NCBI GenBank assembly: GCA_022447545.1
Contig: JAKVBI010000014.1
Location: forward strand, 34,336 to 98,335
Direction of reading: 5' to 3'
Length of the DNA stretch: 64,000 nucleotides
Origin: Myxococcota bacterium
GTDB taxonomy: Bacteria; Myxococcota_A; UBA9160; SMWR01
Positions 18,652 to 61,024 of the stretch are shown here, in pieces. The notes under the pieces are model-generated. The model made no database searches. It saw only the letters and a list, made by a program, of their open reading frames with translations, and had not been told where the DNA came from. A program made the translations under genes and the position numbers. Within the stretch, counting starts at the first letter, position 1. The number at the start of each line of letters is the position of its first letter.

Positions 18652-18953
18652 CGTATTTCTCTCCTGTCTCGAGTGTCTGTCGGGTCGGATTGGGGGTTTC
18701 GATCCGGTATTCGTCCCCTTGAGCGCCGTAGCCTTGGGCTGCGACCGTGGAGCCCCACGATCATGAGCCATGGAACGTGGTCTTGGCGAGCCCAATCGTT
18801 TCTCGAAACCACGGCAGGCCCGCTTGGCGATCCCTCTGTCATTTTCCAGCGGCCGCGGGGTAAGATGCGCCCACGACGGGAATCGCGTGGCTGCGAACCA
18901 GCGAGTGCATGATTCCACTCGCTCCAGAACCCGCGGAAGCAAGGAGATCTGCC

Positions 18954-29700: not shown

Positions 29701-30163
29701 TGCCGGCGAACAGGTCGCTGCTGCCGGAGTTCGCCGAAGTCTGGGTTCGTTTCGTACCCTGGGTGGTCTTCTCGCCAGCGGTCGAGTCGAGACTCACGAT
29801 GGCGTTTCGGACGACGCCCGATTTGATGTGGGGGAGGTCGCTGCGGGAGAGCAGGGATTCGATCGACAGCTCCAACTCGATCCGAGATGCGACGATGTCG
29901 AGCCCGATGGCCGGATCGCGGAATCGCAACTCCTCCGCTTCGAGGTGCCCGTCGAGGTCGAACTGACCGGACCGCGCAGTGATCTCGAATCCGCTCAGGC
30001 CGCTCACGAGGGGGAGCAGAGCGCGCACGAAGCCATCGCCGGTCTGAAGATATGCGAGGCCGCCCCCGAGTATCGCGGCCACGAGTAGCAGCAGTCCCCC
30101 GGTGAGCCGGAGAACTCCACGCTTTGGCATTCGCGTTCTTTGCTTCCGGATTTGCTCTGACAC
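26735..30163 (-). CDS. AsmA-family outer-membrane biogenesis/lipid-transfer-like protein
   Basis: 1142 aa. N-terminal TM anchor, long repetitive beta-rich body, and an AsmA-like C-terminal region (LTGQLNTTLSNSHISDIPVLDML...ATGRIGLDGRLDLMVSPRL). Confidence 0.8.
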   Translation of the reverse strand: MSEQIRKQRTRMPKRGVLRLTGGLLLLVAAILGGGLAYLQTGDGFVRALLPLVSGLSGFEITARSGQFDLDGHLEAEELRFRDPAIGLDIVASRIELELSIESLLSRSDLPHIKSGVVRNAIVSLDSTAGEKTTQGTKRTQTSANSGSSDLFAGRIEIPVRIDRAEIEALTLRLLDGDKPRNVIGPLNSNFTDLAPLAAAQGTLTTPLALAMEAGQPGYSGRLQATLHLEQDRQGVVRGMRLNGDLALARTHGEKESGLAISVDLDANSHEASTLAATLTAQAKRNGRDTGELASTWHWHEADSGTAKDPRRSLIADLDLTSLELVNLNPFLAAIGGAQFHGGKVDAKFHLTHPPNGPLGLSGNLDAHAIALTLDSSGSDTPALDVHAKQEISWNRHTSILSVSRADLDIVGRHGRSLQIALEDPLEMDLDLANGDPAPGQSAKISVELERIDIAGVRRWLRALRVDSPDAVEDGHIGIDVEVEVNGRGARLGTTGTVEARSLRIQGVEGELDLHSEIDLKVEDYERFHLDHAVISLNRGSSPLLKGRLSGENDPPTGTWNAAVQIEASDLMKAMAPLPLLSADLRKRIHGGNLDGRFTLKSTAPGTAEVAGKLAVKGIALEGAAPKRGLSIDLDADLRALSSPDDLAIRELNLAFVEPAGRPLGSLASKGNLALASSEKPRASQITVSTKSLHLAPWIEALTDFDASLGDLPLTASIEFTNDAAKDVLRSKGQETFEVIPEGAINPFTAHASHQIEVLSTGGMDFEIELKIPRKKGPPDAVKFHGKYENHTGRKVTAPSLTVAANVESLDLTPYLSSQIEKSSQRERGSQPPVPVLPSGQENSDPEGQELVLDIHAKIDQARFSEIAIESSELRLSRDPSRLKLDVNLTETTGGSLKALLDHRRTKEMRSLSWNLSGTEIDVGKLMRSIAKAGLVENTAMNGTLAVSSSVRGSGKTPEGLRRNLTGQLNTTLSNSHISDIPVLDMLSRTTGISAFEGILLSGCRVGGRIENDAFILSDSECTGDVATLQATGRIGLDGRLDLMVSPRLGPSFQGALGKVFRTPHLTETAGGFIALPIDILVEGPVGQEHMSVRARVPGALDKLTLGTTSKVLDTTVKIGSGLLEMGGALLKVGSGSTRDRP

Positions 30164-30238: not shown

Positions 30239-30865
30239 TCAGTCTGGTTGGGTGGCTACCAGGCTGGGACGTCGTGAGACTTGGTCGTACCAGCGGGCGA
30301 GGTGTTCGCAGGTGCCGGGCAACTCGAAGGGGTTGCTGGGGCGTCCTCCTTGAATGCATGTCGCCAGGGTGATGTCCGCCCAGCTGAAGTCTGGGCCGGC
30401 CACGAAGGGGTTGTTCGCGAGCTGCGCATCGAGCATACGGAGGGAGTCCATGGCGTAGCGCTTGTTGAGTTCTCCCCACTCGGGCATCTGCACGGGCTCC
30501 AGAGGTTTGGCAAAAGCTGAGGTCTGGCGCACGTAGGCTCGGAGTTGGGTATAGACGCCGAACTCCACCACACGCTGCCACATCTCCAGGCGTGCCCGCT
30601 CGAGCGGGTCGCGGCCCATGAAAGGGGGGTCGGGGTGGAGTTCTTCCAGGTAGCGTGCGATGGCGACGGTCTCGCCGATGCAGGTGCCGTCGTCGAGTTC
30701 CAGCACGGGGATCAAGCCGGCCGGGTTGCGGGCCAGGAAATCGGGAGTCCGATGCTCGCCTTCCATCAGGTTGACGGGGACGAAGGGGATCTCGATGCCC
30801 TTTTCCTCCAGATAGATCGCCAGGCGGCGGGAGCTTCCCAGTTTTCTGTATCCGTGGATCTTCAC
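30239..30865 (-). CDS. glutathione S-transferase
   Basis: 208 aa. KIHGYRKLGSSRRLAIYLEEKGI...NPAGLIPVLELDDGTCIGETVAIARYLEE. Confidence 0.9.
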   Translation of the reverse strand: MKIHGYRKLGSSRRLAIYLEEKGIEIPFVPVNLMEGEHRTPDFLARNPAGLIPVLELDDGTCIGETVAIARYLEELHPDPPFMGRDPLERARLEMWQRVVEFGVYTQLRAYVRQTSAFAKPLEPVQMPEWGELNKRYAMDSLRMLDAQLANNPFVAGPDFSWADITLATCIQGGRPSNPFELPGTCEHLARWYDQVSRRPSLVATQPD

Positions 30866-31435
30866 ATCGAGGTCACGGGCTCAGTTCCGGTGTACCGGTC
30901 GTGTGCCCCCTCCCTTCGGTGATGCCTCGGCGGGGTATTTCCTGGTTTGGGTGGTCTGATCATGAAATCTCCCGTTCTTGGTGCGCGAAGTCTAGCGGCG
31001 CAACCGGTCGGTACGAGTGAAGGTTTTGGCTTCCACGAGGGATCGGCACATGGCGGTCCAACGCAGTGAAGCCGGGATGCGCCGCGCTTTCCAGCCAGGT
31101 GTGAACTACTTCACAGTCTTTTTTGAGGCTCTGGGACTGTTGTATCGGGCGCGTCAAAACTTGCTTTCGCTTTCGGCAGGCGCAGGAAAGGATCGGTGCG
31201 CCGGGAGGGGCCCGGCGATCATGCACTGAGCGTCCAAGTCTTTGAATCTGCTGGGGAAGGTCGCCCAAGGATCTCTTCCAAGGTGCAAATCGACCGAATT
31301 TCGCGTCGGTGATCGAATGAAAAACCGCCTCCGTCTGATCCAGTTGGAGGCTCCTCGTCGACTGATCCGGGCAGAACCCCAAAACCACCCATCCCTCGGC
31401 CCAACCCGATGGACGAAACATTGGAGAGCGAAGCC

Positions 31436-34400
31436 ATGACCGTCAACAGCCACCCTCGACCGTGCGTCCAGAGTCTTGGGAATCGTTTCGACCTCTCCAA
31501 CGCCGTCAGGAGTTTCGTTGCGGGCCTCCTGGCGCTTGGCGTGCTCGGCCTCACCGCTTGCGGAGACCCGCCCGTCCGCCCGTCCTCGGCCGAAGAGTCC
31601 TCGGCCGCTTCGCGACCGACCCCCGAGTCGAGCCCTCAGCCTCGCGACCCGGGCGACCCTGCGGCCTGTGCGCCTTACACCATTTTTGAGGGTCCGGTCG
31701 ATCTGCTCGAGCGGGTCACACTCGTGGGGCTGACCTCCGCAGAAGAGATCGATGGCATTCGAATCGAAGGTCCGGAGTCCGATCTTCCGGTCTTTCTGGG
31801 GCAGGCCGAGGACTCGGGCTTTTTCTTCACCGCCCCCATCCATCCGGACCTGGCGGGGGAGGCGGGTAGCTTGAGGGTGTGGCTCGATCTGGCTTCCATG
31901 ACGGAGGAGAGCTGCGACCTCGGCACCATTGAAGTGCCGGCGCTGCCCCCGAGCGATTCCAGCGAGGCCGACGAGGTGCTGGACCTGTTGGAGCAGGCGG
32001 CTCTGTCCATGCTGCAGAGCTACGAGTTCGACGCCGAGTCCTTCGAGCCTCTGGCCTCCGGCAACAGCGCCATGGATCTGTCCCTTGCGCGACTTCATCG
32101 GGCACTGTTCTACGAGGAGTCGCCCACGCGGATTTCTGTCATTCGGTCGGAACTCGCGGCCCTGCCCGATTCCGAGCGCTCGTTCCTCGGTTCGATCCTG
32201 AAAGAGACACGGTTTCGCGAGACGCTGGAGGACATGATCGCCCTCTACGAACCGCAGAGGACACCTGCCGTGCCGGTCATGGGGGCGTCTGTGGCGGCCA
32301 TGTCTCCGTCCAATCCTCTCTTACCGCAACCGCCGGCGTCGGAGGACTCGGGCTCTTGTTATCCGGCGAACGTTGCACCGGAAGTGATTGGATCTGCTGG
32401 AGACTTGAGCCAGGCCATGGTCCGTGCGAAAGAGGCAGAGGACGTCACCGAGCGCTGGAAATCGTCGCGTAGGTTTTCGAGCAACTGGCTCAACTATCTG
32501 GGGGTCTTTTCCACGAGTCTTCATGGAAAAGCCCTCTCTCTCATGGGGGGTGGGTTGATCCTCTATATGGATCTCTCCGAGCGATACACGGCCACGCTCT
32601 TGCCTTCGAAGCTCGAAGAGGTGCGGATGCAGGCGAGCGTCAATCCCATCAATGAGGATTACATGGACAAGATTTCGAGCTTACCGGTCTGGGACGCCTA
32701 TGCGACGGCGTCGAGTCAGGGCGCCGACCTCAAGAAGGATCTCTTCCAGATCGTGCTGGCGATTGCAGGCGCGGTTCCATCGTCGAAGACCGTTGGGCTC
32801 GGACTCATCCAATATGGAGATGCTACGAACCATGCCTTCCAATCGATCCCCGACGACGCGAAGTGCTTCTCGATACCGGGCCACACCTGGAGCAACATCC
32901 GGGTGACTGGACGGGAGTGGCTGGAAGAGGATCCCAAGCTTTCTGGTGAGATCATAAGCATCGCTTTGCAGGATCCCAACAGGATCGTTCCCGTCGATAT
33001 CGGTACCACGAACATCGAGATCATGCTTTCGCGTGAGAAGTTCCCTTGTGCGGACTGCTCCGTTGGCAACCGGAGCGATGACATCGACATCACGGTTCGG
33101 GAGAAGGAAGTGGTTTTCAGCCGCTCGGCATTTCCGATTCCCAGCCCTTCCGGCACCGTGACGGTCACTGGAGCGATCCAGAACTCGAGCCGCCCCGATT
33201 TCTGGAGCCTCGACTACGACGATTCGGGGGTGAATCTGATCGGAGTGGAACGGCAGGGGGCCAGCTTCGCGCTCACTTTCCAGGGGAAGGGCGATCCCGA
33301 CGCGTTTCCTGTTGGCGTCCGAGTGAAGAGTGAATCGACCAAGCTTCCGGGCCAGAGCGAGAACCCGTGGTTCGAGACGAAGATCGTCCTCGAGCGAGAA
33401 GTGAAGATCGAGCACGATGGCGACGACTGCGTGGGAACCGACGAGGAGGTGATCCTCTCCGCCACTGTGATCGGACTCAATATGCCAGATGTTTCGTGGG
33501 AGGCCTCCGTGGGAGCGGATCTGATCCCAGTGAGCTCAACCGAAGCCGTTTTTTCCGCGATGGATCCCGGCATCTACACGATCACGGCCATCGCCGCGGA
33601 AGACGGAGGGACCCGGGGGTCCATCGAGATCGCGGTCCAAGCATGCGACTTCGAACTCTACGTCAACAGCAGGGCCCGGGTGTCGACGGTGAAGAGTGAC
33701 TCGCATCCCAACTGCAATCCCGGGAGCCATGAGGAGCCCTTCATCGAAGAGGAACAACACGGTCTGCCTTGGGGGGAGAGTTGGGTGGATACGGAAACCT
33801 TCAGAAACCCAGATCGATGGACCGAGGGTGGAAGCTTCTCCGTCGACCTGTTCGCGAGCGAGAGCATTACCTCGACCTACGAAATCATGGGGCAATGCTT
33901 CAGTTCGGTTGCACTGGCCGAGGGGCAGATTGCAGGTGAGCTCTCGAGTCGAGACGACGGACGGGTCGTCGATATCGATCTCGAGATGGGTGGTCGACAC
34001 AATTGCGTTCCGGTGCACGGAGATGTCGAAGATTGCAAGGGTGGGAGCGCGGATCTCAGCTCCAGCATGTACTTCGTCCTTGAGCACGAGGGCTGGGGGA
34101 CCCAGAGTTACGATTACGAGGTGGATCTGGACTGTACGGCGGATACGGGTGGGGTGCCGGTCCAGGTGATTACCTCCGTGGTGATCATGAACGCCGCGGG
34201 AAATTGGCAGAACGGCGTGGCCCAGCACGTTCTGGACAACTCGACCCTGGGAGCCTTCTCGCGGGTCTCGTTCCTGCGTTGCTCGGAAGGCCAGCCGATT
34301 TCTGTGCAGGAAACTTTTGATTTCCAGGACTATCTGCCGCCCGGTGCTTCATCCAATTCAGAGATCGAGCCGTACACGGCTGCGGTCTGGGTGTCCTTCA

Positions 34401-34504
34401 GTGCGAATGCCTCGATGGATCCCGGAAACATGAGAAGGTTCGAGACGATCCATCAGAGTTCGGTACAGGGAAGCGTCTCCCTTCGGCCCGTGATGACTCG
34501 CTGA
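31436..34504 (+). CDS. large (about 1020 aa) lipoprotein of unknown function with at least one Ig-like (Big_2-like) segment
   Basis: ATG 31436 follows GGAGAG. Lipobox LGLTAC, then a Pro/Ser-rich linker. DVSWEASVGADLIPVSSTEAVFSAMDPGIYTITAIAAEDGGTRGSIEIAV resembles bacterial Ig-like domains. Confidence 0.7.
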   Translation: MTVNSHPRPCVQSLGNRFDLSNAVRSFVAGLLALGVLGLTACGDPPVRPSSAEESSAASRPTPESSPQPRDPGDPAACAPYTIFEGPVDLLERVTLVGLTSAEEIDGIRIEGPESDLPVFLGQAEDSGFFFTAPIHPDLAGEAGSLRVWLDLASMTEESCDLGTIEVPALPPSDSSEADEVLDLLEQAALSMLQSYEFDAESFEPLASGNSAMDLSLARLHRALFYEESPTRISVIRSELAALPDSERSFLGSILKETRFRETLEDMIALYEPQRTPAVPVMGASVAAMSPSNPLLPQPPASEDSGSCYPANVAPEVIGSAGDLSQAMVRAKEAEDVTERWKSSRRFSSNWLNYLGVFSTSLHGKALSLMGGGLILYMDLSERYTATLLPSKLEEVRMQASVNPINEDYMDKISSLPVWDAYATASSQGADLKKDLFQIVLAIAGAVPSSKTVGLGLIQYGDATNHAFQSIPDDAKCFSIPGHTWSNIRVTGREWLEEDPKLSGEIISIALQDPNRIVPVDIGTTNIEIMLSREKFPCADCSVGNRSDDIDITVREKEVVFSRSAFPIPSPSGTVTVTGAIQNSSRPDFWSLDYDDSGVNLIGVERQGASFALTFQGKGDPDAFPVGVRVKSESTKLPGQSENPWFETKIVLEREVKIEHDGDDCVGTDEEVILSATVIGLNMPDVSWEASVGADLIPVSSTEAVFSAMDPGIYTITAIAAEDGGTRGSIEIAVQACDFELYVNSRARVSTVKSDSHPNCNPGSHEEPFIEEEQHGLPWGESWVDTETFRNPDRWTEGGSFSVDLFASESITSTYEIMGQCFSSVALAEGQIAGELSSRDDGRVVDIDLEMGGRHNCVPVHGDVEDCKGGSADLSSSMYFVLEHEGWGTQSYDYEVDLDCTADTGGVPVQVITSVVIMNAAGNWQNGVAQHVLDNSTLGAFSRVSFLRCSEGQPISVQETFDFQDYLPPGASSNSEIEPYTAAVWVSFSANASMDPGNMRRFETIHQSSVQGSVSLRPVMTR

Positions 34505-38192: not shown

Positions 38193-39395
38193 TTGGCAGG
38201 ACCGCTCGAGGGAATCAAGGTCGTGGATGCATCGGCAGTCGTGTCGGGTCCTCTGGCTGCCATGATGCTCGGAGATCAGGGAGCCGAGGTGATCAAACTC
38301 GAGTCCACGACGGTGGGTGACACGCTTCGGAACTCGCCGTATTCCCGCGGCGGTCTCACATCCTTCTACGCCAACTGCAACCGGAACAAGCGAACCATCG
38401 CCGTTGATCTGAGCCGACCCGAGGGGCTCGAGGTGGGCCACCGACTGATTCGCGAGGCCGATGTGTTCATCCAGAACTGGCGTCCGGGCGCGGCGACCCG
38501 TCTCGGGATGGGGCAGTCCGATCTCCATAAGGTCAACGCCGACCTGATCTACTGCTCGATCTCTGGCTTCGGTCCCGACGGACCCTATAGCCAGCAGCGC
38601 GTGTACGATCCCATCGTTCAGGGAGTCTCGGGGCATACCGCTGTCCAGATCAACCCGGAAGTTCCCATTCGCGATCTCGTGCGCAACATCGTGGCTGACA
38701 AGTCGAGTGCCTACACGGCTGCGCAGGCCATCACAGCGGCGCTATTTGCTCGGGAGCGGGGAGCCGGCGGTCAACACATTCAGGTTCCCATGATCGATGC
38801 GTCGTTGGCTTTCTTCTGGGCCGACGGCATGATGGCCCACACCTTCGCAGGTGAAGACAAACCGGGCGGGTTCACGCTCTACGAGATCTACCGACTCACT
38901 CAGACGAAAGACGGCCATTTGATCTATTTTGTTGCGACCGACGAAGAGTTCCAAGGGCTGTTCAGGGCGTTGGGGCACCCCGAGTGGCTCGAGGACCCAC
39001 GCTTCGCCACGATGTCAAGCCGGAGGAAGACCGAGAACGCCCAGATCCTCGGCGAGATGATTCAAGCGGCTCATCTGGAATACACCACAGCTGAGTTGAT
39101 CGAGAAGATGCTGGAGGAGGATGTGCCCGTCGGCCCGGTGCTGTCCCTCGAAGAACTCTTCGACGACCCGCAGCTGGTCAACAATCAGGCGATTCTCGAA
39201 TTCGAGCATCCTACCGCCGGCCGCTATCACCAGGCCAGGCCTGCTGCCCGATTCGACAAGACGCCGCAGGATCCGACTCGCCGAATGCCGCCGCTACACG
39301 GAGAGCACACCGACGAGATTCTTGCTGAGCTGGGCTACAGCACCGCCCAGACCGATCAGATGCGAGCCCAAGGCATCACCTTCAGCGGCAACTGA
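38193..39395 (+). CDS. CaiB/BaiF family (class III) CoA-transferase
   Basis: TTG start follows GAGGAGGG. GIKVVDASAVVSGPLAAMMLGDQGAEVIKLE...VFIQNWRPG...YCSISGFG. Confidence 0.9.
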   Translation: MAGPLEGIKVVDASAVVSGPLAAMMLGDQGAEVIKLESTTVGDTLRNSPYSRGGLTSFYANCNRNKRTIAVDLSRPEGLEVGHRLIREADVFIQNWRPGAATRLGMGQSDLHKVNADLIYCSISGFGPDGPYSQQRVYDPIVQGVSGHTAVQINPEVPIRDLVRNIVADKSSAYTAAQAITAALFARERGAGGQHIQVPMIDASLAFFWADGMMAHTFAGEDKPGGFTLYEIYRLTQTKDGHLIYFVATDEEFQGLFRALGHPEWLEDPRFATMSSRRKTENAQILGEMIQAAHLEYTTAELIEKMLEEDVPVGPVLSLEELFDDPQLVNNQAILEFEHPTAGRYHQARPAARFDKTPQDPTRRMPPLHGEHTDEILAELGYSTAQTDQMRAQGITFSGN

Positions 39396-40188: not shown

Positions 40189-40562
40189 TCGCCCCCGAAA
40201 CAGGGGCAATTCACCCAGATCGTGTTCCTTGAGGTCCGGGGGATGACCCATCGCCTGCAGTCCAGTGTTTTCCGCGGTGCTGCGTCCGGCTACACCCAGA
40301 TTCCCCGGTTGGTGCCAAGCGATGCAACTGCAGGTTTTTGGTATGAGCTGGCTCTGCAACGCAGCAGCCAGCTTGATGAGGCATCGAACCGACTCCTGAC
40401 CCTGAATTGATTGGCTCCGGGAGAAGCGGTCTGCGCGCAGGCCTGCGGCCTTCTGCTCGGCAGAGCACTCACGGATCAGAGCTGGCGGGTGTAGACTCTT
40501 CGCGTTCCCCGGGGTCGTGCCGGCAACGGGGCGTGTCCTTTTTAATGAACTGGAGGGACTCC

Positions 40563-41462
40563 ATGTCGCTTCCTGTGAACCCGCGAACGTTGAGGCCCAC
40601 CCAGAGACTCGGTCTTTTGGCCTGGCGGACGATGATGAGAACCTTCGGTCTGCTGACGGGGCTGCGAAACCGATCACTTCGGGAGCGGATATCGGAGCAC
40701 GCCTACGGGCCGCATCCGTCCGAACGCATCGAGCGGATCGAGCCTTCTGGGGAATCTCCTTCGAAAACTCCGGTCGTCTATGTGCACGGTGGGGGCTGGA
40801 TCTGCGGCAACAAGGAGATGTACAGCGGCGAGCTTCTGTTCCTGGCCGAGGCAGGCTACCCGGTCTTCAACGTCGAGTATCCCCTGGCGCCGGAGCGGCC
40901 CCATCCCCACATGCTGCTTTCGTTGCTCGCATCGCTGGCGTGGATCCGTGAGCAGTATCCCGAGACCCAAGAGGTCCATCTCATGGGGGATTCGGCGGGT
41001 GGAAACCTGGCATCGATGCTCGGAATCCTCGTCTCGAATCCGGGCCTCATCCTTGCCCTCGACCCAGCCGTCTCGCTGAATCTGCCCGAGGCTCGTAGCG
41101 TGGTCTCGATCTACGGTGTCCTCGATCGCCTGAGTTGGATCGAAGAAGGGTTTCCAGGCGCAGCTCTGATGATGGAGTGTTATGTCGGGCCCGAAGGGCT
41201 CGAGGCCGAGATCGGCCCGGAAATTGCGGTCACCCCGATGGATCTCGAATTCGAACAGCTGCCGCCGACATTTATTGGCGTCGGGTCCAAGGACCAACTG
41301 GCCGAGTCGTCGCGCCTTTGCGCCGAGCACTTGGCGAAGAACTTCGAGCCCGTCGATTACCAGGTCTATCCGGGTGAAGCCCACGGCTTTTTCAACAGAA
41401 GTGGACGCCCTGCCTGCCAGGCGCTTCGAAGAGATATCCTCGACTTTTTCGCGAAGCACTGA
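40563..41462 (+). CDS. alpha/beta hydrolase, HSL-type (family IV) esterase/lipase
   Basis: ATG 40563 follows GGAGGG. VVYVHGGGWICG (HGGG) and MGDSAGGNLA (GDSAG) motifs. Confidence 0.85.
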   Translation: MSLPVNPRTLRPTQRLGLLAWRTMMRTFGLLTGLRNRSLRERISEHAYGPHPSERIERIEPSGESPSKTPVVYVHGGGWICGNKEMYSGELLFLAEAGYPVFNVEYPLAPERPHPHMLLSLLASLAWIREQYPETQEVHLMGDSAGGNLASMLGILVSNPGLILALDPAVSLNLPEARSVVSIYGVLDRLSWIEEGFPGAALMMECYVGPEGLEAEIGPEIAVTPMDLEFEQLPPTFIGVGSKDQLAESSRLCAEHLAKNFEPVDYQVYPGEAHGFFNRSGRPACQALRRDILDFFAKH

Positions 41463-42035: not shown

Positions 42036-42968
42036 CTACCCGCTGTGGTATTGGTTCCAGCCCGCGATGACTTCTTCGATGTCATCGGGCGCGAAGAACA
42101 CCTGAGGCTGGTTTTGCTCGCCCCAAAGGGACCACGAATCTTCGATCCCCCAGTCCTCCCGGACCTCCCACGCTTCGTCATCGACGATCCGGTCCATGTC
42201 TGCGAAGTATTCGAAGAACGTTCCGCTGGGATCTCGGAGGTACCAGAACATGTTTCCCCCGATCTGGTGCCGACCCGGTCCGGCAATGTGGGTTCCCTCA
42301 TGGGCGTTCAGGTATTGGGTCGCTGATGCACATACAGCGTCGATGTCGTCCAGCTCCATCGCATAGTGGTTGAGGTACGGGACGGGTGCGGGTGTCATCA
42401 ACAGGTTGTGGTGATCTGGAGAGCAGCGGGTGAAGAACGCCAGCCCGCCCGCGATGTCGGAGATTTTGAAGCCGATGCCCTCGATATAGAGCTTGTGGGT
42501 CGCGAGTATGTCGTTGGTTCCGAATACGACGTGACCCAGACGACGCGGGGGGCGAAGGCTCGGCTCGACCATGACACCTGGGCGTTTGCCCAATCGATTG
42601 CGCTCGCCCGGCCGGTTGGATTCACGAGGGGGAACGGCGGGAATGTCGGCCACGTTGCAGGGCTCGATGACGATGTTCCATTTGTTGACAGGATCGGGAA
42701 CGTGGAGTTTGCCGTCCCGGGTTTCCGAACCAATTCCGATTCCTTCGAGCCTCTGCACAGTGCTCGCGAGATCCTCTTCGCTCTCGCAGGCGACGCGGAT
42801 CTCGCGAAGTTGCCGATAGGGAGCTTCTGCGATGACGAACTGGTTGGGGCAGGATTCCGACCCCCACTTCCCGTCGCTGCCGGCCAGGCCGATTTCCCGG
42901 TAGAAGCCGTCGAGGCGTACGGGGTCCGGGACACCGATTTCGATTCCAAGCAGTCGATGGAGGCCCAT
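42036..42968 (-). CDS. two-domain VOC-family extradiol ring-cleavage dioxygenase-like protein
   Basis: 310 aa. LGHVVFGTND, LNHYAMELDD and TFFEYFADMD provide the candidate His/His/Glu metal ligands. Confidence 0.8.
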   Translation of the reverse strand: MGLHRLLGIEIGVPDPVRLDGFYREIGLAGSDGKWGSESCPNQFVIAEAPYRQLREIRVACESEEDLASTVQRLEGIGIGSETRDGKLHVPDPVNKWNIVIEPCNVADIPAVPPRESNRPGERNRLGKRPGVMVEPSLRPPRRLGHVVFGTNDILATHKLYIEGIGFKISDIAGGLAFFTRCSPDHHNLLMTPAPVPYLNHYAMELDDIDAVCASATQYLNAHEGTHIAGPGRHQIGGNMFWYLRDPSGTFFEYFADMDRIVDDEAWEVREDWGIEDSWSLWGEQNQPQVFFAPDDIEEVIAGWNQYHSG

Positions 42969-43193
42969 GGAGGTTTCCCCTTCCGGTTCTTATGGGATGG
43001 ATGCGTATCAATTGACTGGATGGATGTCCAATTCGACGGGCTGCGACTTCATGGCGATGGGTTCCGAGCGATGAGGGGGGAGGGGCAGGCGGATCCGGTT
43101 TGGAGAGCTTTCAGGTTCCCGATCCCAAGGGAACCCTCTGCCGGCGCTTTCGTGAGGCCTACCGTCCTGGACAGAGCGGAGTATCCTGCCGCC

Positions 43194-43586
43194 ATGGCTA
43201 TCGTCGATCCGGAGCGGAGACATATCGTCCTCTGGGACGGCGACTGAATTCCCTGAGGCCGAATCGCCGCCTGGGTCAGGCGGAAGGATCGGAACGGGCT
43301 GTTCGAAGTCGTTCCCTACCAGGCTGCTGCGTCGCCGCCCATGACGCCAGAGCTTCGGGATGCGTGTGCACGCTCGGCTCACGTTCTCACCCGCGATGGC
43401 AGAGTGCTGAACGGTGGGCGAGGAACTCTGTTCATCCTGCGACAATTGGGGTGGTGGGTGGGTTTTTTGAGCGTGCCTCCGTTGGTCTGGCCTGTGGAAG
43501 TGAGCTACGCGATCTTCGCTCGAAACCGTGTTTTCTTTTTTCGGCTTTTCGCGCGCTTCTTGCCACCCCGTGATCTGGACCGCTAG
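43194..43586 (+). CDS. DCC-family (DUF393) thiol-disulfide oxidoreductase homolog with two in-frame TGA codons at the CxxC positions (candidate UxxU selenoprotein)
   Basis: A single frame gives MAIVDPERRHIVLWDGD-TGA(43245)-IP-TGA(43254)-GRIAAWVRRKDRNGLFEVVPYQ...RGTLFILRQLGWW...YAIFARNRVFFF. There are no other stops. The ORF track splits it into the tail of 42366..43247 plus 43341..43586. A hairpin lies directly downstream. Confidence 0.6.
43259..43292 (+). promoter_or_regulatory. SECIS-like stem-loop downstream of the two in-frame UGAs
   Basis: Lower stem CCGA(A)UC/GAUCGG and upper stem CCGCCUG/CAGGCGG (43267-43283), with a G-G-U apical loop at 43274-43276. The upper stem begins 10 nt after the second UGA. 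Confidence 0.45.
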
Positions 43587-43713
43587 CTCGTTGTACCCAC
43601 CGGCGCGTGCCATGCTCCCGCTATTCTTTGCGGCCATGAACTTCTTGCGGTTTCCAGTTCTCCCGAGCAGGCTGCTTGTCGGTTGTCTTTTCGTGAGAAA
43701 CAGGAGCTGACCG

Positions 43714-44433: not shown

Positions 44434-45099
44434 ATGAGTACCGTCGCACTTCTCAAAGCCTTTCTGGGGTTGTTCGCCATGATGAACCCCATTGGAAACA
44501 CCGGGATCTTTCTCGGTGTCACGGGCGATCTGCCCAGCGGTTTCAAGCTGCGGGCTGCGTTCAAGACTTGTTTCGCCGTGCTCGTCATTCTGGAGATCGC
44601 GATCTTTGGGGGCATGGAGATCCTGAAACTCTTCGGCATTTCAATTGCGGCCTTTCAGACCGCCGGTGGACTGATTGTGCTCGGGATCGGTATGAAGATG
44701 CTCGGCGGCGATGAGAATTCCAGCCAGAAAACCGATGGTGGCAGCGCGGCGATTGCGACGGTCTCCGAGAGGGAACAAGAGGTCAGCGGTAAGCTCATCG
44801 TTCCGCTTGCGATGCCGATTCTTGGTGGCCCCGGCTCGATTACGACCGTCGTAACGGTCGCCGCCGCGTTTCCGACGGTTGAAGGAAAGATCGGAACCGC
44901 CGTTGGGACGGCGGCTCTCGTTGCGACGATGTTCCTCTGCTTCGCCCTCTCCGGTCTGATCAGCCGTTATTTGAGTGACCATGCGCAGGAGATCATTCTG
45001 CGGTTCATGGGCTTGATCCTGGTTGCCATCGGCATGGACATGATGCTCGGTGGCATCGAGGCCTCCCTGGCCAAATCCGGCCTCTTTCACGCTTCCTGA
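44434..45099 (+). CDS. MarC/UPF0056 family membrane protein
   Basis: FLGLFAMMNPIGNTGIFLG is an N-terminal signature typical of the MarC family. Six TM-like segments. Confidence 0.85.
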   Translation: MSTVALLKAFLGLFAMMNPIGNTGIFLGVTGDLPSGFKLRAAFKTCFAVLVILEIAIFGGMEILKLFGISIAAFQTAGGLIVLGIGMKMLGGDENSSQKTDGGSAAIATVSEREQEVSGKLIVPLAMPILGGPGSITTVVTVAAAFPTVEGKIGTAVGTAALVATMFLCFALSGLISRYLSDHAQEIILRFMGLILVAIGMDMMLGGIEASLAKSGLFHAS

Positions 45100-45226
45100 A
45101 GCCACCAGCTTCTCTGTAATGGCTGGTTCCGTGCCCGGGCTTCCAAGGGGTTGTCGAAGTTTGACGCCTGGCTGTTTGGCCCTCTACTCTACGTGCTGTT
45201 CGCAGATTTTTGTCAGGAGGCACCCC

Positions 45227-46402
45227 ATGGATCTTCAGTTCACTCCCCAACATGAGAAGTTCCGATCGGAAGTGCGCGGTTGGATTGATGCCAACCTGGA
45301 GCGACGCTGGACAGAGGAACTGCGCGATCCGGCCAACGGTGAAAACGAACTGGTTGAGGTCCGGCGCAGCTGGCAGGCGAAGCTCAACGAAGCCGGGTAT
45401 CTCGGTATGGATTGGCCTGAAGAATGGGGCGGGAGGGGAGCAACAGTCGTCGAGAAGGCGATCTTCTTGGAGGAGAGCCTGCGCGCAGATTCGCCTCCGA
45501 TCCCGAATTTTCTGGGTATCGGCCTGCTCGGGCCTGCTCTGATCCACCACGGCACTGAAGACCAGCGCCGTCGCTTTATTCCAAAGATGCTCTCCGGTGA
45601 AGAAATTTGGTGCCAGGGTTTCAGTGAACCCGCTGCCGGTAGTGACCTGGCCTCTCTTCGCTGTCGTGCAGAGCCCGATGGAGAAGACTGGCGTATCACC
45701 GGCCAGAAGGTCTGGACGACCTTCGGTCCCTGGGCCGATTGGATTTTTGTTTTGGCACGGACGGACATGGACGATCGCCACGGAGGGATCAGCTTCTTCC
45801 TCGTGCCCCTCGACCAGGAGGGGTGTGATGTCAGGCCATTGCTACAGATCAGCGGGGAATCCGAATTCGGAGAAGTTTTCTTCGACGGTGCATTGGCAAA
45901 GGGCGAGCACCTGGTGGGAAAGATCGGGGAGGGATGGCGCATCGCCATGACGGTTCTCTCCTACGAGCGTGGTGCTTCCGCTTTGACGGACCCCGCTCGA
46001 AACGACGTCTTTCTCGCGGATCTCGTCGAAGGTCTGCGTGAGAACGGTACGTTGCACCTTCCCGATGTGAGGGAGAAGCTCGCACGCTTGTTCGTGCAGA
46101 ACGAGGTGATTCGTGCCAATGGCTACCGCACCCTGGCCACTCTTGCCTCGGGAAGTGCGCCGGGACCCGAGTCCTCCATCGAAAAGCTTCTCTGGTCCGA
46201 GTATGCGCAGAAACAATCCGAGACCGCATTGGAACTGCTTGGCCCGCGTGCGCACCTACGGCTTCGGTCGCCTCTGGCCCGCACGGAGATGGATTGGGCG
46301 CGTGAGTTTCTCTGGGATCGTGCAGGCACCATCTACTCGGGCTCGTCGGAAATTCAGAGGAACATCATCTCCAAGCGTGTCCTCAATCTTCCTACATCCT
46401 GA
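45227..46402 (+). CDS. acyl-CoA dehydrogenase (catalytic-type subunit)
   Basis: ATG 45227 follows AGGAGG. CQGFSEPAAGSDLASL and the C-terminal YSGSSEIQRNIISKRVL carrying the conserved catalytic Glu context. Confidence 0.9.
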   Translation: MDLQFTPQHEKFRSEVRGWIDANLERRWTEELRDPANGENELVEVRRSWQAKLNEAGYLGMDWPEEWGGRGATVVEKAIFLEESLRADSPPIPNFLGIGLLGPALIHHGTEDQRRRFIPKMLSGEEIWCQGFSEPAAGSDLASLRCRAEPDGEDWRITGQKVWTTFGPWADWIFVLARTDMDDRHGGISFFLVPLDQEGCDVRPLLQISGESEFGEVFFDGALAKGEHLVGKIGEGWRIAMTVLSYERGASALTDPARNDVFLADLVEGLRENGTLHLPDVREKLARLFVQNEVIRANGYRTLATLASGSAPGPESSIEKLLWSEYAQKQSETALELLGPRAHLRLRSPLARTEMDWAREFLWDRAGTIYSGSSEIQRNIISKRVLNLPTS

Positions 46403-46417
46403 CCGGGAGAAATCGAA

Positions 46418-47500
46418 ATGCAGTTCAATCTCGATGAAGACCGAGCTCTTCTCAAACAGTCCACCCGTGAGTTGCTCGAGAGCGAATCTCCCCTCACTGA
46501 TGCACGTGCGATCATGGAGGACAGTTCCGAGGGCTACGACAAGGCGCTTTACGCCAACTTGGCGGAACTTGGATACATGGGCCTCGCGGTTCCAGAAGAA
46601 GAGGGTGGCTCCGGCGTAGGTGCGATCGGCCTCGTCGCGGTTCTCGAGGAACTCGGACGTGCGGCCTTCCCTGGACCCTTCCTCGACATGGCGATGGCCG
46701 CTGAGGTGCTGCGCGGCGTCAAGGAGCCCGAAGGCGCAGAATGGCTGCGGAGGTTGGTTGCCGGGGAGGCTTTGGTGTTGATCGCGAACTCCGAGTCGCT
46801 TTCTGGTGATGAGCCGATCGAGCCAAATACCCATTTCGAAGACGGCCGGGTGACGGGTTCGAAGCACTTCGTCCCTTTCGGGGCCCAGGCTGACGCCATG
46901 TTGGTGAGTACTGATGCTGGGCTCGTCGTGGTCCCGAAGCCCGACGCTGGCTGGAACGCCGACCTGCTTGAAGCGCTCGATCACGCTCAGCGCCTGGCGT
47001 CCATCGATTTCGACGCATCCTGTACTCAGCTGACCGATTCAGGGACTGCTGCGACATTGCTCGAGTCCGCTCACCAGTTGGGCGCTCTCGGTGCGGCGGC
47101 GTTGATGCTCGGGTTGATGGAGCGGACCCTGGAGATGACGCTCTCCTATACCATGGAGCGCCAGGCCTTCGGCGCCCCCATCGCGACCTTCCAGGTGCTT
47201 CAGCATCGTCAGGCCGACATGTTCATCCACACTGAGAGCACGAGGGCCGCTGTCTATCGCGCTGCCTGGGCCGCCGACCATGACCCGGACTCCGCTTCCC
47301 GGTTGATCGCAGTCGCGAAGGCTGCCGCGGGTGATGCGGGACGCTGGGTGGCGGGTCAGAGCATTCAGCTCCATGGAGGTGTCGGGTACACGTGGGAGTA
47401 CGATCCGCACATCTACCTGAAGCGGATCAAGACACTTGAGCAGTTCTACGGAACCACTCGCAGTCAACTCGAGAAGGTGCTTCAGGCGGCCCGGATCTAG
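46418..47500 (+). CDS. acyl-CoA dehydrogenase family protein (probable partner subunit)
   Basis: Starts 15 nt after the preceding ACAD stop, following GGGAGAA. Has an ACAD C-terminal fold (IQLHGGVGYTWEYDPHIYLKR) but no Glu at the usual catalytic position. Confidence 0.85.
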   Translation: MQFNLDEDRALLKQSTRELLESESPLTDARAIMEDSSEGYDKALYANLAELGYMGLAVPEEEGGSGVGAIGLVAVLEELGRAAFPGPFLDMAMAAEVLRGVKEPEGAEWLRRLVAGEALVLIANSESLSGDEPIEPNTHFEDGRVTGSKHFVPFGAQADAMLVSTDAGLVVVPKPDAGWNADLLEALDHAQRLASIDFDASCTQLTDSGTAATLLESAHQLGALGAAALMLGLMERTLEMTLSYTMERQAFGAPIATFQVLQHRQADMFIHTESTRAAVYRAAWAADHDPDSASRLIAVAKAAAGDAGRWVAGQSIQLHGGVGYTWEYDPHIYLKRIKTLEQFYGTTRSQLEKVLQAARI

Positions 47501-60914: not shown

Positions 60915-61024
60915 GGTTTGCGTGTCGATGGGGCTCGGTTTCAACTGGACGTCTCGATTGCTTTGGCCTGGTCCGTTCCAGCACTCGGTGCGTCCCAGTT
61001 GCTGTGCACAAGCCGCGATGGCGT

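What the first reader, a model, noticed from the sequence alone, without database searches (positions are those of the whole stretch)
43194..43586. DCC/DUF393 oxidoreductase homolog with both CxxC cysteines written as TGA (candidate bacterial UxxU selenoprotein)
From ATG 43194 a single frame reads MAIVDPERRHIVLWDGD-[TGA 43245]-IP-[TGA 43254]-GRIAAWVRRKDRNGLFEVVPYQ...YAIFARNRVFFF and ends at TAG 43586.

- This is the DCC-family DGxCxxC signature followed by the usual basic helix.
- Both cysteine positions are occupied by in-frame TGA. There are no other stops or frameshifts over 131 codons.
- The ORF track hides the gene as the tail of 42366..43247 plus 43341..43586, which are in the same frame.
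- Replacement of a redox-motif Cys by UGA is the classical signature of bacterial selenoproteins.
- A double-Sec UxxU motif is, to my knowledge, established only for the eukaryotic SelL family. A bacterial DCC-family UxxU protein would therefore be unusual.
- Many neighbouring genes terminate in TGA, so code reassignment does not explain it.
Basis: partly seen in the sequence, partly recalled or inferred. Interest (0 to 1): 0.85.

Follow-up and report, generated by a model that had tools for sequence, protein, structure and literature searches.

The report
Double-selenocysteine DCC-family redox protein gene
This small bacterial gene encodes a thioredoxin-like DCC-family protein in which both active-site cysteines are written as UGA (selenocysteine) and are followed by a conserved RNA hairpin; the same arrangement occurs in dozens of bacteria from several phyla, yet it is missing from current selenoprotein catalogues and is truncated by genome annotation.

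Summary
Window 43194-43586 (+) is one frame of 130 codons with TGA at codons 18 and 21, the positions of the DxxCxxC cysteines of Pfam PF04134 (DCC1-like).

I read it as a genuine UxxU selenoprotein gene:
- Five distinct close orthologs from independent assemblies have the same two TGAs.
- In 139 distinct related loci the two positions are U/U in 44, C/U in 6, U/C in 2 and C/C in 86.
- The codons on both sides of the TGAs are under purifying selection.
- A 7-bp hairpin with a GGU loop (43267-43283) lies 26 and 17 nt after the two UGAs and meets every published bacterial SECIS criterion. It shows compensatory changes and frozen synonymous sites, and is present in 50 of 50 UxxU/CxxU forms against 7 of 86 Cys forms.
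- TGA is the main ordinary stop codon in the window, so the code is not reassigned.

Not shown: selA/B/C/D in this genome (none in the 64 kb), or selenium in the protein.

However, no DCC-family selenoprotein appears in the 2026 catalogue of 119 families, in NCBIfam or in searchable papers, and RefSeq truncates a member. It is a new member of a known kind.

The parts
43194..43586 (+). Complete selenoprotein gene: 130-residue DCC1-like (PF04134) protein with Sec18 and Sec21. Stop codon TAG at 43584-43586.
   Evidence: frame; Pfam 49.9 / 35.0 bits against a cut-off of 27.8. Searches show orthologs with the same start position, the same two TGAs and an aligned C-terminus. One search gives pN/pS of 0.21-0.40 along the whole frame.
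43194..43196 (+). Start codon ATG, 17 codons before the first UGA.
   Evidence: all six close orthologs have ATG or GTG at exactly this aligned position; at least four of the five orthologs have an in-frame stop within 1-7 codons upstream, which excludes a longer N-terminus.
43245..43247 (+). UGA-1, read as Sec18. It is the first cysteine position of the DxxCxxC motif.
   Evidence: this codon is TGA in 46 of 139 distinct homologous loci and TGC/TGT in 92 (the remaining locus, L077, is out of register here). It lies 26 nt upstream of the hairpin's apical loop.
43254..43256 (+). UGA-2, read as Sec21. It is the second cysteine position of the motif.
   Evidence: this codon is TGA in 50 of 139 distinct loci and TGC/TGT in 89. 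It lies 17 nt upstream of the apical loop and 10 nt upstream of the stem base.
43267..43283 (+). Bacterial SECIS-type hairpin inside the coding sequence. The stem is 43267-43273 (CCGCCUG) paired with 43277-43283 (CAGGCGG). The apical loop is GGU at 43274-43276. The hairpin overlaps the codons for A-A-W-V-R-R (helix alpha-1).
   Evidence: fold; RNAalifold predicts the same 7 bp; 4 pairs with compensatory change; 0 of 500 shuffles reach the observed covariation; slid registers give 14-45% paired against 88%; present in 50/50 UxxU+CxxU forms against 7/86 CxxC forms; MFE -12.5 kcal/mol; synonymous sites are frozen. One search gives the published bSECIS criteria, all of which are met.
43182..43187 (+). 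Putative -10 promoter box TATCCT, 6 nt before the ATG. No Shine-Dalgarno sequence. This suggests a leaderless mRNA (inference only).
   Evidence: the box (G/T)GTA(T/C)C(C/T)T is conserved at the same distance from the start in all six orthologs, and five of them have TTGnnn about 17 nt upstream. The strict sigma-70 scan found nothing, so this remains an inference.
43365..43382 (+). Cys58 (43365-43367) and His63 (43380-43382), the third conserved Cys and a conserved His of the DCC domain. They are a candidate resolving residue or metal ligand.
   Evidence: the corresponding columns (C56 and H61 of P0006) are at least 90% conserved in 47 Cys-form homologs; they are invariant in the six Sec-form orthologs.

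Best explanation
The locus is an intact, expressed gene for a small DCC1-like (DUF393, PF04134) thioredoxin-fold protein. Its redox motif is U-I-P-U instead of C-x-x-C.

Proposed mechanism:
- Both UGA codons (codons 18 and 21) are recoded as selenocysteine by the standard bacterial pathway (SelB with Sec-tRNASec).
- The pathway is recruited by a single SECIS hairpin lying in the coding sequence just downstream: a 7-bp G+C-rich stem with a GGU apical loop, 17 nt after UGA-2 and 26 nt after UGA-1.
- The same RNA encodes the first helix of the protein (AAWVRR), so the hairpin fixes both the codons and the peptide there.
- The product would be a probably membrane-associated oxidoreductase, working through a selenenyl-selenide (diselenide) / diselenol couple in place of the disulfide/dithiol couple of its Cys-containing relatives.

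Shown: the reading frame, the family membership, the alignment of the TGAs with Cys, the conservation and selection pattern, and the hairpin with its covariation.

Inferred: SelB-dependent decoding of both UGAs, formation of a diselenide, membrane association, and the physiological substrate.
For: 1. Family. PF04134 is above the curated cut-off with or without the motif region.

2. Recurrence. Five further distinct orthologs (68-78% identical) carry TGA at both positions. They come from independent ENA, JGI, NCBI and Logan assemblies, including one species seen in 8 samples.

3. Sec/Cys pairs. Among 139 distinct related loci from species-representative genomes and metagenomes, the two positions read UU in 44, CU in 6, UC in 2 and CC in 86. 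22 of 68 genomes carry a TGA form, and 17 of these lack the AAWVRR[KN]D peptide, so the hairpin-derived search pattern could not have retrieved them. They include Myxococcota, Chloroflexota, Armatimonadota, Planctomycetota (Ca. Uabimicrobium, Ca. Brocadia) and Ca. Entotheonella.

4. Translation through the TGAs. pN/pS is 0.21 for the 10 codons upstream of UGA-1 and 0.30 between UGA-2 and the first internal Met.

5. SECIS.
- The hairpin sits at a fixed register in 50/50 UU+CU forms (at least 6 of 7 pairs) against 7/86 CC forms.
- MFE is -7.5 kcal/mol or lower in 50/52 Sec forms against 8/86 Cys forms.
- Four pairs show compensatory changes, 0 of 500 shuffles reach the observed covariation, and slid registers collapse. 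RNAalifold finds the same helix.
- The loop G-GGU-C, the stem length, the 17 and 26 nt spacing and the MFE all fit the published bSECIS model (PMC13188914).

6. RNA-level constraint.
- pS is 0 in the six hairpin codons against 0.45-0.59 around them.
- Arg at hairpin columns 34-36 is AGG/AGA in 47/47 Sec forms but CGC/CGG in 7/7 Cys forms. Val is GTC in 47/47 Sec forms against 15 GTC and 10 GTG in Cys forms.

7. No code reassignment. 34 of 47 ORFs in the window end in TGA, and several Sec-form orthologs themselves terminate in TGA.

8. Fold. An AlphaFold model of a 61%-identical Cys homolog (pLDDT 86) has the b1-a1-b2-a2-b3-b4-a3 thioredoxin/glutaredoxin topology, with the CxxC at the N-terminus of a1. 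Its PDB neighbours are all Trx-fold proteins, although the matches are weak.

9. Nothing on the other strand. The antisense ORF 43008-43637 has no family match.
Against: - No selA, selB, selD or tRNA-Sec was found in the 64-kb window or in about 1.5 Mb of flanks of related loci. The Sec trait of this organism is therefore not demonstrated. A random 64-kb sample would rarely contain these genes, so their absence here says little.
- No Rfam family matches the hairpin. Rfam models of short bacterial SECIS elements are poor.
- Decoding of UGA-1 at 26 nt from the loop is supported by only one clean UxxC-plus-hairpin example (L065). The other UxxC locus (L111) lacks the hairpin.
- The sample of relatives was partly drawn with a peptide pattern (AAWVRR[KN]D) that is itself the translation of the hairpin. 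This inflates the share of hairpin-bearing forms in the metagenome set.
- No experiment of any kind was possible.
Confidence: 0.85

Rival explanations
1. The TGAs are real stop codons. Under this reading the functional product is a truncated DCC-domain protein initiated downstream of the second TGA, as gene callers and RefSeq annotate it, and the upstream 17 codons are untranslated leader or a separate micropeptide.
For: All public gene calls for these loci are truncated. Examples are the 75-110 aa products P0001-P0005, RefSeq WP_372371577.1 (105 aa) and NRA00276.1 (91 aa). The window has an in-frame ATG at 43341.
Against: - The truncated product would lack strand b1, the whole redox motif and part of helix a1 of the fold.
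- The stretch upstream of UGA-1 is under protein-level purifying selection (pN/pS 0.21), as is the stretch between UGA-2 and Met49 (0.30), which has no conserved start codon.
- The upstream peptide HxxLWDGD is the conserved N-terminal signature of full-length Cys homologs.
- The internal start positions used by annotators differ from genome to genome.
Confidence: 0.04
2. UGA is read through by something other than the Sec machinery. Candidates are a suppressor or near-cognate tRNA inserting Cys, Trp or Gly, or a lineage-specific reassignment of the code, with the hairpin acting only as a read-through-stimulating roadblock.
For: Sec machinery was not found in the sequence available. Stable hairpins downstream of stop codons can stimulate read-through in other systems (own knowledge).
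Against: - TGA is the predominant ordinary stop in the window (34/47) and terminates some of the Sec-form orthologs themselves.
- The recoded codons sit only at the two redox Cys positions and alternate with TGC/TGT in relatives. That is the specific signature of Sec rather than of Trp or Gly.
- The hairpin's loop sequence and spacing match the SelB-binding bSECIS consensus and are conserved across at least five phyla.
Confidence: 0.05
3. The gene is a decaying pseudogene, or the TGAs are sequencing or assembly errors for TGC/TGT.
For: Two stops within four codons would normally mark a dead gene. The raw reads for the window cannot be inspected.
Against: - The same two TGAs occur in 44 distinct sequences from unrelated samples, sequencing centres and assemblers.
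- The rest of each ORF is intact and under purifying selection.
- Errors would not co-occur with a covarying hairpin.
Confidence: 0.01
4. Only UGA-2, which sits at the canonical distance from the hairpin, is efficiently decoded as Sec. UGA-1 acts mainly as a selenium-dependent or leaky attenuator, so most ribosomes terminate at codon 18 and the gene is expressed at very low level.
For: UGA-2 lies 10 nt from the stem base, close to the E. coli fdhF geometry (own knowledge), whereas UGA-1 lies 19 nt away. CxxU forms (6) outnumber UxxC forms (2), and one UxxC form lacks the hairpin.
Against: - Both spacings (17 and 26 nt to the loop) fall within the published 16-37 nt range.
- UxxU is by far the commonest Sec-containing state (44 of 52), which is hard to explain if UGA-1 were mostly a dead end.
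- Published bacterial UxxU families also place two UGAs 9 nt apart.
Confidence: 0.05

Closest known systems
Cys-containing DCC1-like / DUF393 thiol-disulfide oxidoreductases (Pfam PF04134; Arabidopsis DCC1, B. subtilis YuxK)
   Same: Same domain, above the Pfam cut-off. Same N-terminal hxLWDGD-C/U-x-x-C/U signature, the same conserved downstream Cys and His, and the same length and C-terminal hydrophobic helices. The nearest Cys forms are 48-61% identical. Arabidopsis DCC1 is described as a functional thioredoxin (PMC6603150).
   Different: Both redox cysteines are replaced by UGA-encoded selenocysteine, and a SECIS hairpin is embedded in the codons of helix a1. The window's clade also has U-[I/V/R]-P-U-G, where most relatives, Sec or Cys, have C/U-G-F-C/U-R.
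Bacterial Prx-like thiol:disulfide oxidoreductase selenoproteins with UxxC/UxxU (PF00578; 'Prx-like 2' of the GOS survey) and eukaryotic SelL
   Same: Thioredoxin-fold proteins with two Sec residues in a UxxU redox motif, i.e. two UGA codons 9 nt apart. In bacteria these are presumed to be served by one downstream SECIS (PMC2398784; PMC13188914).
   Different: A different protein family: Pfam finds only DCC1-like and no AhpC-TSA/Redoxin match. The domain architecture also differs, with C-terminal hydrophobic helices and a conserved third Cys and His.
[quoted passage not shown]
   Same: Two Sec residues in a UxxU motif in bacteria.
   Different: No NCBIfam model matches the protein at E <= 1. 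Those families are metal-binding or zinc-ribbon proteins, not DCC-domain proteins.
Consensus bacterial SECIS element (Zhang & Gladyshev 2005 model as summarised in PMC13188914; prototype E. coli fdhF)
   Same: An in-frame hairpin immediately downstream of UGA. It has a 7-bp stem, a 3-nt apical loop GGU closed by G-C (pattern N1-G-[G|U]-N-N2), 17 and 26 nt between UGA and loop, and an MFE of -12.5 kcal/mol. All four published criteria are met.
   Different: One element is positioned for two UGA codons. It is unusually invariant across phyla (GCCUGGGUCAGGC core), to the point of fixing the encoded peptide AAWVRR. It is not recognised by any Rfam model.

Membership tests
DCC1-like thiol-disulfide oxidoreductase (Pfam PF04134 / DUF393) | Sequence match to the family HMM above the curated gathering score. 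| tested here: met
   49.9 bits with Cys at both TGAs (profile 1-112 of 113); 34.3 bits with X; 35.0 bits for the part downstream of the TGAs alone. The cut-off is 27.8.
DCC1-like thiol-disulfide oxidoreductase (Pfam PF04134 / DUF393) | N-terminal D-x-x-C-x-x-C redox motif. | tested here: met
   The motif is present as D-G-D-U-I-P-U. The two TGA codons occupy exactly the columns that hold invariant Cys in 47 Cys-form homologs. The feature is met in position, with Sec in place of Cys.
DCC1-like thiol-disulfide oxidoreductase (Pfam PF04134 / DUF393) | Thioredoxin-like fold with the motif at the N-terminus of helix 1. | tested here: inconclusive
   Tested on a 61%-identical Cys homolog (P0006), not on the window protein itself. 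The model has pLDDT 86.4 and topology b1-a1-b2-a2-b3-b4-a3, with CxxC at residues 16-19 just before helix 17-29. Foldseek matches to Grx, Mrx1, GST-N and SelW are all weak (E >= 0.09). No solved structure matches by sequence.
Bacterial selenoprotein (SelB/SECIS-dependent UGA recoding) | In-frame UGA aligned with Cys in homologs, recurring in independent sequences. | tested here: met
   52 distinct TGA-containing sequences and 86 Cys/Cys sequences at the same two columns.
Bacterial selenoprotein (SelB/SECIS-dependent UGA recoding) | Coding conservation on both sides of the UGA. | tested here: met
   pN/pS is 0.21 upstream, 0.30 between UGA-2 and Met49, and 0.40 downstream. The aligned start codon lies 17 codons before UGA-1.
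Bacterial selenoprotein (SelB/SECIS-dependent UGA recoding) | [quoted passage not shown] | tested here: met
   Criteria from PMC13188914. Here the loop is GGU, the stem is 7 bp, the spacing is 17 and 26 nt, and the MFE is -12.5.
Bacterial selenoprotein (SelB/SECIS-dependent UGA recoding) | selA, selB, selC (tRNA-Sec) and selD present in the same genome. | not testable with these tools
   None in the 64-kb window (ARAGORN; Rfam; Pfam on 49 ORFs). None in about 1.5 Mb of flanks of related loci. The rest of the genome is not available, and the window's genome is not in the searchable collections (best match 80%).
Bacterial selenoprotein (SelB/SECIS-dependent UGA recoding) | Selenium demonstrated in the polypeptide. 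| not testable with these tools
   This requires 75Se labelling or mass spectrometry.
Prx-like / SelL UxxU selenoprotein family (PF00578-related) | Sequence membership in the AhpC-TSA/Redoxin (Prx-like) family. | tested here: not met
   the only Pfam family at E <= 1 is PF04134. The resemblance is limited to the UxxU motif and the thioredoxin-type fold.
Any NCBIfam-defined selenoprotein family (NF04xxxx models used by PGAP) | Match to a curated NCBIfam model. | tested here: not met
   no NCBIfam family at E <= 1. RefSeq annotates the Ca. Uabimicrobium member as a truncated 105-aa 'DCC1-like thiol-disulfide oxidoreductase family protein' without the motif.

The most novel reading that the evidence does not exclude
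This gene represents a previously uncatalogued and phylogenetically widespread selenoprotein family: DCC1-like/DUF393 oxidoreductases with a double-selenocysteine UxxU (diselenide-type) centre.
- It is present in roughly a third of the species-level genomes that have this DCC subfamily, including Myxococcota, Chloroflexota, Armatimonadota, Planctomycetota and Ca. Entotheonella, lineages not usually counted among selenoprotein-rich bacteria.
- One nearly invariant GGU-loop SECIS serves two UGA codons 9 nt apart, only 18-21 codons into what looks like a leaderless mRNA.
- That SECIS dictates the peptide AAWVRR of the first helix.
- Sec and Cys states have switched many times within the family.
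- Current pipelines (PGAP/NCBIfam, JGI, Prodigal-type callers) systematically truncate these genes.
Probability: 0.5. Interest if true: 0.65.

Novelty: new member of a known kind. Interest (0 to 1): 0.55.

Why it matters
**For annotation**
- It would add a widespread family to the prokaryotic selenoproteome.
- It would correct a systematic annotation error. Dozens of genomes, including a RefSeq complete genome, carry a truncated 'DCC1-like' or 'hypothetical' protein that lacks its active site.

**For selenium biology**
- The gene would be a useful marker of the Sec trait in phyla where that trait is poorly charted.
- It is a natural system in which one SECIS sits at two different distances from two UGAs. 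UxxU, CxxU, UxxC and CxxC relatives are all available as controls, so the spacing tolerance of bacterial SelB-dependent decoding becomes directly testable.

**For the DCC/DUF393 family**
- The family's bacterial function is unknown.
- Repeated Cys-to-Sec exchange at both motif positions argues that the CxxC is a catalytic redox centre rather than a structural metal site.

Tried and rejected
- **Rfam.** At gathering thresholds on the whole window, and at E <= 10 on 43150-43400, I found only a noise hit to a lncRNA model. This is uninformative for short bacterial SECIS elements.
- **tRNA-Sec.** ARAGORN found none in the window or in any fetched locus.
- **selA/selB/selD.** Pfam annotation of 49 window ORFs found none. 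tblastn with an E. coli SelD sequence recalled from memory, used only as a probe, found no hit in the window plus about 1.5 Mb of related loci.
- **Other selenoprotein genes in the window.** Two scans, one by coding statistics across TGA and one by bSECIS geometry, found only the DCC gene's own TGAs in a protein-like context.
- **The gene on the opposite strand.** The 209-aa antisense ORF 43008-43637 has no Pfam match. The 293-aa ORF 42366-43247 is the shadow of the glyoxalase-family gene on the minus strand plus the N-terminus of the DCC gene.
- **Literature on Sec use in the carrier lineages.** The search returned nothing useful.
- **Papers I could not read.** Haft & Tolstoy 2025 (mSystems) and Deng et al. 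2026 (Cell Rep) are not held. A mention of this family there cannot be excluded, although the 2026 review that cites both does not list it.
- **Sequence search of the PDB.** No relative found.
- **Strict sigma-70 scan.** No promoter found. The leaderless-promoter idea rests only on conservation in the ortholog alignment.
Full report
**1. The observation**

- From ATG 43194 a single + frame reads MAIVDPERRHIVLWDGD-TGA-IP-TGA-GRIAAWVRRKD... and ends at TAG 43584-43586.
- The two TGAs are at 43245-43247 (codon 18) and 43254-43256 (codon 21).
- The mechanical ORF list splits the gene into 42366..43247 and 43341..43586, which share the frame.
- Pfam PF04134 (DCC1-like thiol-disulfide oxidoreductase) scores 49.9 bits with Cys put at the TGAs. 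The part downstream of both TGAs scores 35.0 bits alone, against a curated cut-off of 27.8. Family membership therefore does not depend on how the TGAs are read.
- NCBIfam has no model that matches.

**2. Orthologs from independent assemblies**

A search with the C-terminal 109 residues returned five close relatives that are all suspiciously short (75-96 aa), plus two full-length Cys forms with WDGACGFC and WDGDCVFC.

I fetched the contigs that encode the short ones and translated upstream in frame. Every one carries TGA at both positions:
- WDGD*VP*G. One species with this motif was seen in eight samples, including the NCBI MAG contig SPKZ01006432.1. A second species, from a TARA Oceans contig, has the same motif.
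- WDGN*RP*G, in a JGI metagenome.
- WDGD*VP*G in a further species, from ENA.
- WDGD*IP*G, in another NCBI MAG.

All six sequences, counting the window, start with ATG or GTG exactly 17 codons before the first TGA, and at least four of the five orthologs have in-frame stops within a few codons upstream. Sequencing error and a private pseudogene are thereby excluded.

**3. A wider sample**

I scanned the species-representative genome collection and the metagenome collection with an alignment of the C-terminal parts. This gave 148 further loci.

The codons at the two motif positions, over 139 distinct sequences, are:

| State | Distinct sequences |
|---|---|
| TGA/TGA | 44 |
| TGY/TGA | 6 |
| TGA/TGY | 2 |
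| TGY/TGY | 86 |
| misaligned | 1 |

- Among the 68 genome loci, 22 carry a TGA form, and 17 of those 22 lack the AAWVRR[KN]D peptide. The hairpin-derived search pattern therefore could not have retrieved them.
- The carriers are labelled Myxococcota/Myxococcales, Polyangium, Chloroflexota/Anaerolineae, Armatimonadota, Planctomycetota (Ca. Uabimicrobium sp. HlEnr_7 complete chromosome, Ca. Brocadia), Ca. Entotheonella and unclassified 'delta proteobacteria'.
- Each is an intact ORF of about 120-140 aa apart from the two TGAs. Several end in a genuine TGA stop.
- On a crude neighbour-joining tree built from the part of the protein downstream of the hairpin, Sec and Cys states are interspersed, with about 19 inferred switches. 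The window's clade is monophyletic, all UxxU, and distinguished by U-[I/V/R]-P-U-G where most others have U-G-F-U-R. The tree is short-sequence NJ, so the number of switches is only indicative.

**4. Translation runs through the TGAs**

Among the six close orthologs:

| Region | pS | pN | pN/pS |
|---|---|---|---|
| 10 codons before UGA-1 | 0.52 | 0.11 | 0.21 |
| 33 codons between UGA-2 and the first internal Met | 0.45 | 0.13 | 0.30 |
| next 66 codons | 0.56 | 0.23 | 0.40 |

This is protein-level purifying selection along one continuous frame. The truncated products that gene callers propose would not show it.

**5. The hairpin**

*Position and fit to the published model.* Directly downstream lies a hairpin. 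The stem is 43267-43273 (CCGCCUG) paired with 43277-43283 (CAGGCGG), and the loop is GGU at 43274-43276. Its MFE as a 20-nt element is -12.5 kcal/mol.

The bacterial SECIS model summarised in PMC13188914 requires:
- a 4-16 bp upper stem;
- 16-37 nt between the UGA and the loop;
- an MFE of -7.5 kcal/mol or lower.

This hairpin meets all four. The spacing is 26 nt for UGA-1 and 17 nt for UGA-2.

*Association with the TGA forms.*
- At the same register, all 50 distinct UxxU and CxxU sequences form at least 6 of the 7 pairs, and 40 form all 7. Only 7 of 86 CxxC sequences reach 6.
- The MFE is -7.5 or lower in 50 of 52 Sec forms against 8 of 86 Cys forms.

*Covariation.*
- RNAalifold on 46 Sec-form sequences predicts exactly this helix.
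- Four of its pairs show compensatory double changes (C-G to U-A, A-U or G-C), in 14 cells.
- The covariation score is 0.165 against 0.086 in shuffles (0 of 500 reach it). Sliding the 3' partner by 1-3 columns drops pairing from 88% to 14-45%.

*RNA-level constraint.*
- The six hairpin codons have pS = 0 among the six orthologs, while flanking codons have pS of 0.45-0.59.
- Across the whole sample, Arg at hairpin columns 34-36 is AGG or AGA in 47 of 47 Sec forms, but CGC or CGG in all 7 Cys forms with Arg there.
- Val is GTC in 47 of 47 Sec forms, against 15 GTC and 10 GTG in Cys forms.
- Ala is GCC in 45 of 49 Sec forms, against a mixture in Cys forms.

The hairpin therefore also explains why the peptide AAWVRR(K/N)D tracks the Sec forms.

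*Exceptions.*
- One Cys form (L121) keeps a perfect hairpin. This is plausibly a recent Sec-to-Cys conversion.
- One UxxC metagenome contig (L111) has no hairpin.

Rfam does not recognise the element. I consider that uninformative.

**6. Alternatives**

- **Code reassignment** is excluded. TGA ends 34 of the 47 ORFs called in the window.
- **The opposite strand** offers only a 209-aa shadow ORF with no family match.
- **Non-Sec read-through** cannot be formally excluded without experiments. It does not explain why the recoded codons are restricted to the two redox-Cys columns, nor why the hairpin matches the SelB-type consensus.
- **UGA-1 decoded inefficiently.** This remains possible. UGA-2 is 10 nt from the stem base, close to the E. 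coli fdhF geometry as I recall it, and UGA-1 is 19 nt away. CxxU forms are commoner than UxxC forms. However, UxxU is the dominant state (44 of 52), and both spacings lie within the published range.

**7. What could not be shown**

- The window contains no tRNA. Pfam annotation of 49 ORFs found no SelA, SelB or SelD.
- No tRNA-Sec or SelD-like gene lies in the roughly 1.5 Mb of flanks fetched for relatives.
- Two scans for further selenoprotein genes in the window found only the DCC gene itself.
- The window's own genome is not in the searchable collections; the best DCC match is 80%.

A 64-kb sample would rarely contain those genes, so their absence here carries little weight.

**8. The likely protein and mechanism**

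An AlphaFold model of the 61%-identical Cys homolog P0006 was built from 47 homologs, with mean pLDDT 86.4.
- It has the thioredoxin/glutaredoxin topology b1-a1-b2-a2-b3-b4-a3, followed by three hydrophobic C-terminal helices.
- The CxxC sits at the N-terminus of a1, the canonical redox-active position.
- Its PDB neighbours are glutaredoxins, mycoredoxin, GST N-domains, SelW and DsbE, but only at E >= 0.09. No solved structure matches by sequence.
- A third Cys (Cys58) and a His (His63) are nearly invariant in the family.

The only experimental anchor I could cite for the family is Arabidopsis DCC1, described as a functional thioredoxin affecting complex I and ROS (PMC6603150).

My reading is a small, probably membrane-associated oxidoreductase that cycles between a diselenol and a selenenyl-selenide. 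Both Sec residues would be inserted by SelB, guided by one SECIS. The chemistry, the localisation and the substrate are inferences.

**9. Comparison with what is known, and novelty**

- Bacterial selenoproteins with thioredoxin folds and UxxC or CxxU motifs are common.
- Bacterial UxxU is published: Prx-like 2 in GOS (PMC2398784), and Prx-like PF00578, NF041115 and the FmdB family in the 2026 review.

The family, however, appears to be unreported as a selenoprotein.
- The 2026 review presents what it calls the most comprehensive inventory, 119 families and subfamilies, including those known only from GenBank annotation. It has no PF04134, DCC or DUF393 entry.
- The 2022 review has none either, nor do the deep-Sep paper and its supplements.
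- Full-text searches for DUF393, 'DCC family' or 'DCC1-like' together with selenocysteine or selenoprotein return no paper.
- Public annotation misses it. RefSeq WP_372371577.1 from the complete Ca. Uabimicrobium genome is a 105-aa 'DCC1-like thiol-disulfide oxidoreductase family protein' that begins just after the second TGA. GenBank NRA00276.1 is a 91-aa 'hypothetical protein'.
- Two recent papers could not be read, so prior mention cannot be fully excluded.

I therefore class it as a new member of a known kind: a new selenoprotein family decoded by the known mechanism.

**10. Verdict**

- Confidence that this is a genuine double-Sec selenoprotein gene: about 0.85.
- Interest: moderate (0.55). 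It is a solid and widespread addition to the selenoproteome, a systematic annotation error to fix, and a neat natural system for testing SECIS spacing.

Noticed in passing
window 43160-43196; alignment A4: A -10-like box, (G/T)GTATCCT (TATCCT at 43182-43187), ends 6 nt before the ATG and is conserved at the same distance in all six orthologs. Five of them have TTGnnn about 17 nt further upstream. There is no Shine-Dalgarno sequence. This suggests a leaderless mRNA, which would place the first Sec codon only 51 nt from the 5' end. The strict sigma-70 scan found nothing.
   Followed up: partly
L026 9935-10321 (NZ_CP165719.1, Ca. Uabimicrobium sp. HlEnr_7); L015/L001: Public annotation truncates these genes. 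RefSeq WP_372371577.1 (105 aa) starts just after the second TGA, and GenBank NRA00276.1 (91 aa) is called 'hypothetical protein'. A further dozen or so DCC-domain hits of 79-110 aa (P0015, P0090, P0092, P0103, P0105, P0109, P0113, P0115, P0117, P0121, P0124, P0126) are probably also truncated Sec forms.
   Followed up: partly
L121 (metagenome contig Ga0134127_10285220) and L111 (Ga0114950_10033020): There are two exceptions to the Sec-hairpin association. L121 is a Cys/Cys form (TGC..TGT) that keeps a perfect 7/7 hairpin and the AAWVRRRD peptide, possibly a fossil SECIS after a recent Sec-to-Cys change. L111 has TGA at the first position only and no hairpin, which could mean a pseudogene, a sequencing error or a different element.
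   Followed up: no
window 43365-43367 and 43380-43382: A third Cys (Cys58) and a His (His63) are nearly invariant across both Sec and Cys forms of the DCC domain. They could act as a resolving residue or, together with the UxxU/CxxC, as a metal site. Their distance from the motif in the model could not be measured with the tools available.
   Followed up: no
window clade versus other loci: The window's clade has the motif U-[I/V/R]-P-U-G (a Pro at the third position, as in Trx CGPC). Nearly all other members, Sec or Cys, have C/U-G-F-C/U-R. This may indicate a shifted redox potential or a different partner in this marine-looking clade; the closest relative is a TARA Oceans contig.
   Followed up: no
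window 42366-43247 (+) and 43008-43637 (-): Two long mechanical ORFs overlap the gene: 293 aa on the + strand and 209 aa on the - strand. Both appear to be shadow ORFs. The first is the antisense of the glyoxalase/dioxygenase-family gene 42036-42968 (-) run into the DCC N-terminus. The second has no Pfam match.
   Followed up: yes
window 1499-2806, 18909-20279, 45050-46402, 46418-47500, 38193-39395, 40407-41462, 20290-21087: The window is rich in acyl-CoA metabolism. It has four acyl-CoA dehydrogenase genes, a family III CoA-transferase, an alpha/beta hydrolase, a PhyH dioxygenase, glyoxalase-fold proteins, two GST-like proteins (5508-6842 and 30239-30865) and an aldo/keto reductase. This points to a lipid or xenobiotic degradation neighbourhood. 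None of these genes is conserved next to the DCC gene in the orthologous contigs.
   Followed up: partly
window 59913-61190 (-): A 425-aa ORF matches both the ligand-binding and the transmembrane domains of neurotransmitter-gated (Cys-loop / pentameric ligand-gated) ion channels (PF02931, PF02932). It is a bacterial pLGIC homolog.
   Followed up: no
window 31409-34504 (+) and 26735-30163 (-): There are two very large ORFs. One is a 1031-aa protein with no Pfam match at E <= 0.001. The other is a 1142-aa AsmA/DUF748-like protein.
   Followed up: no
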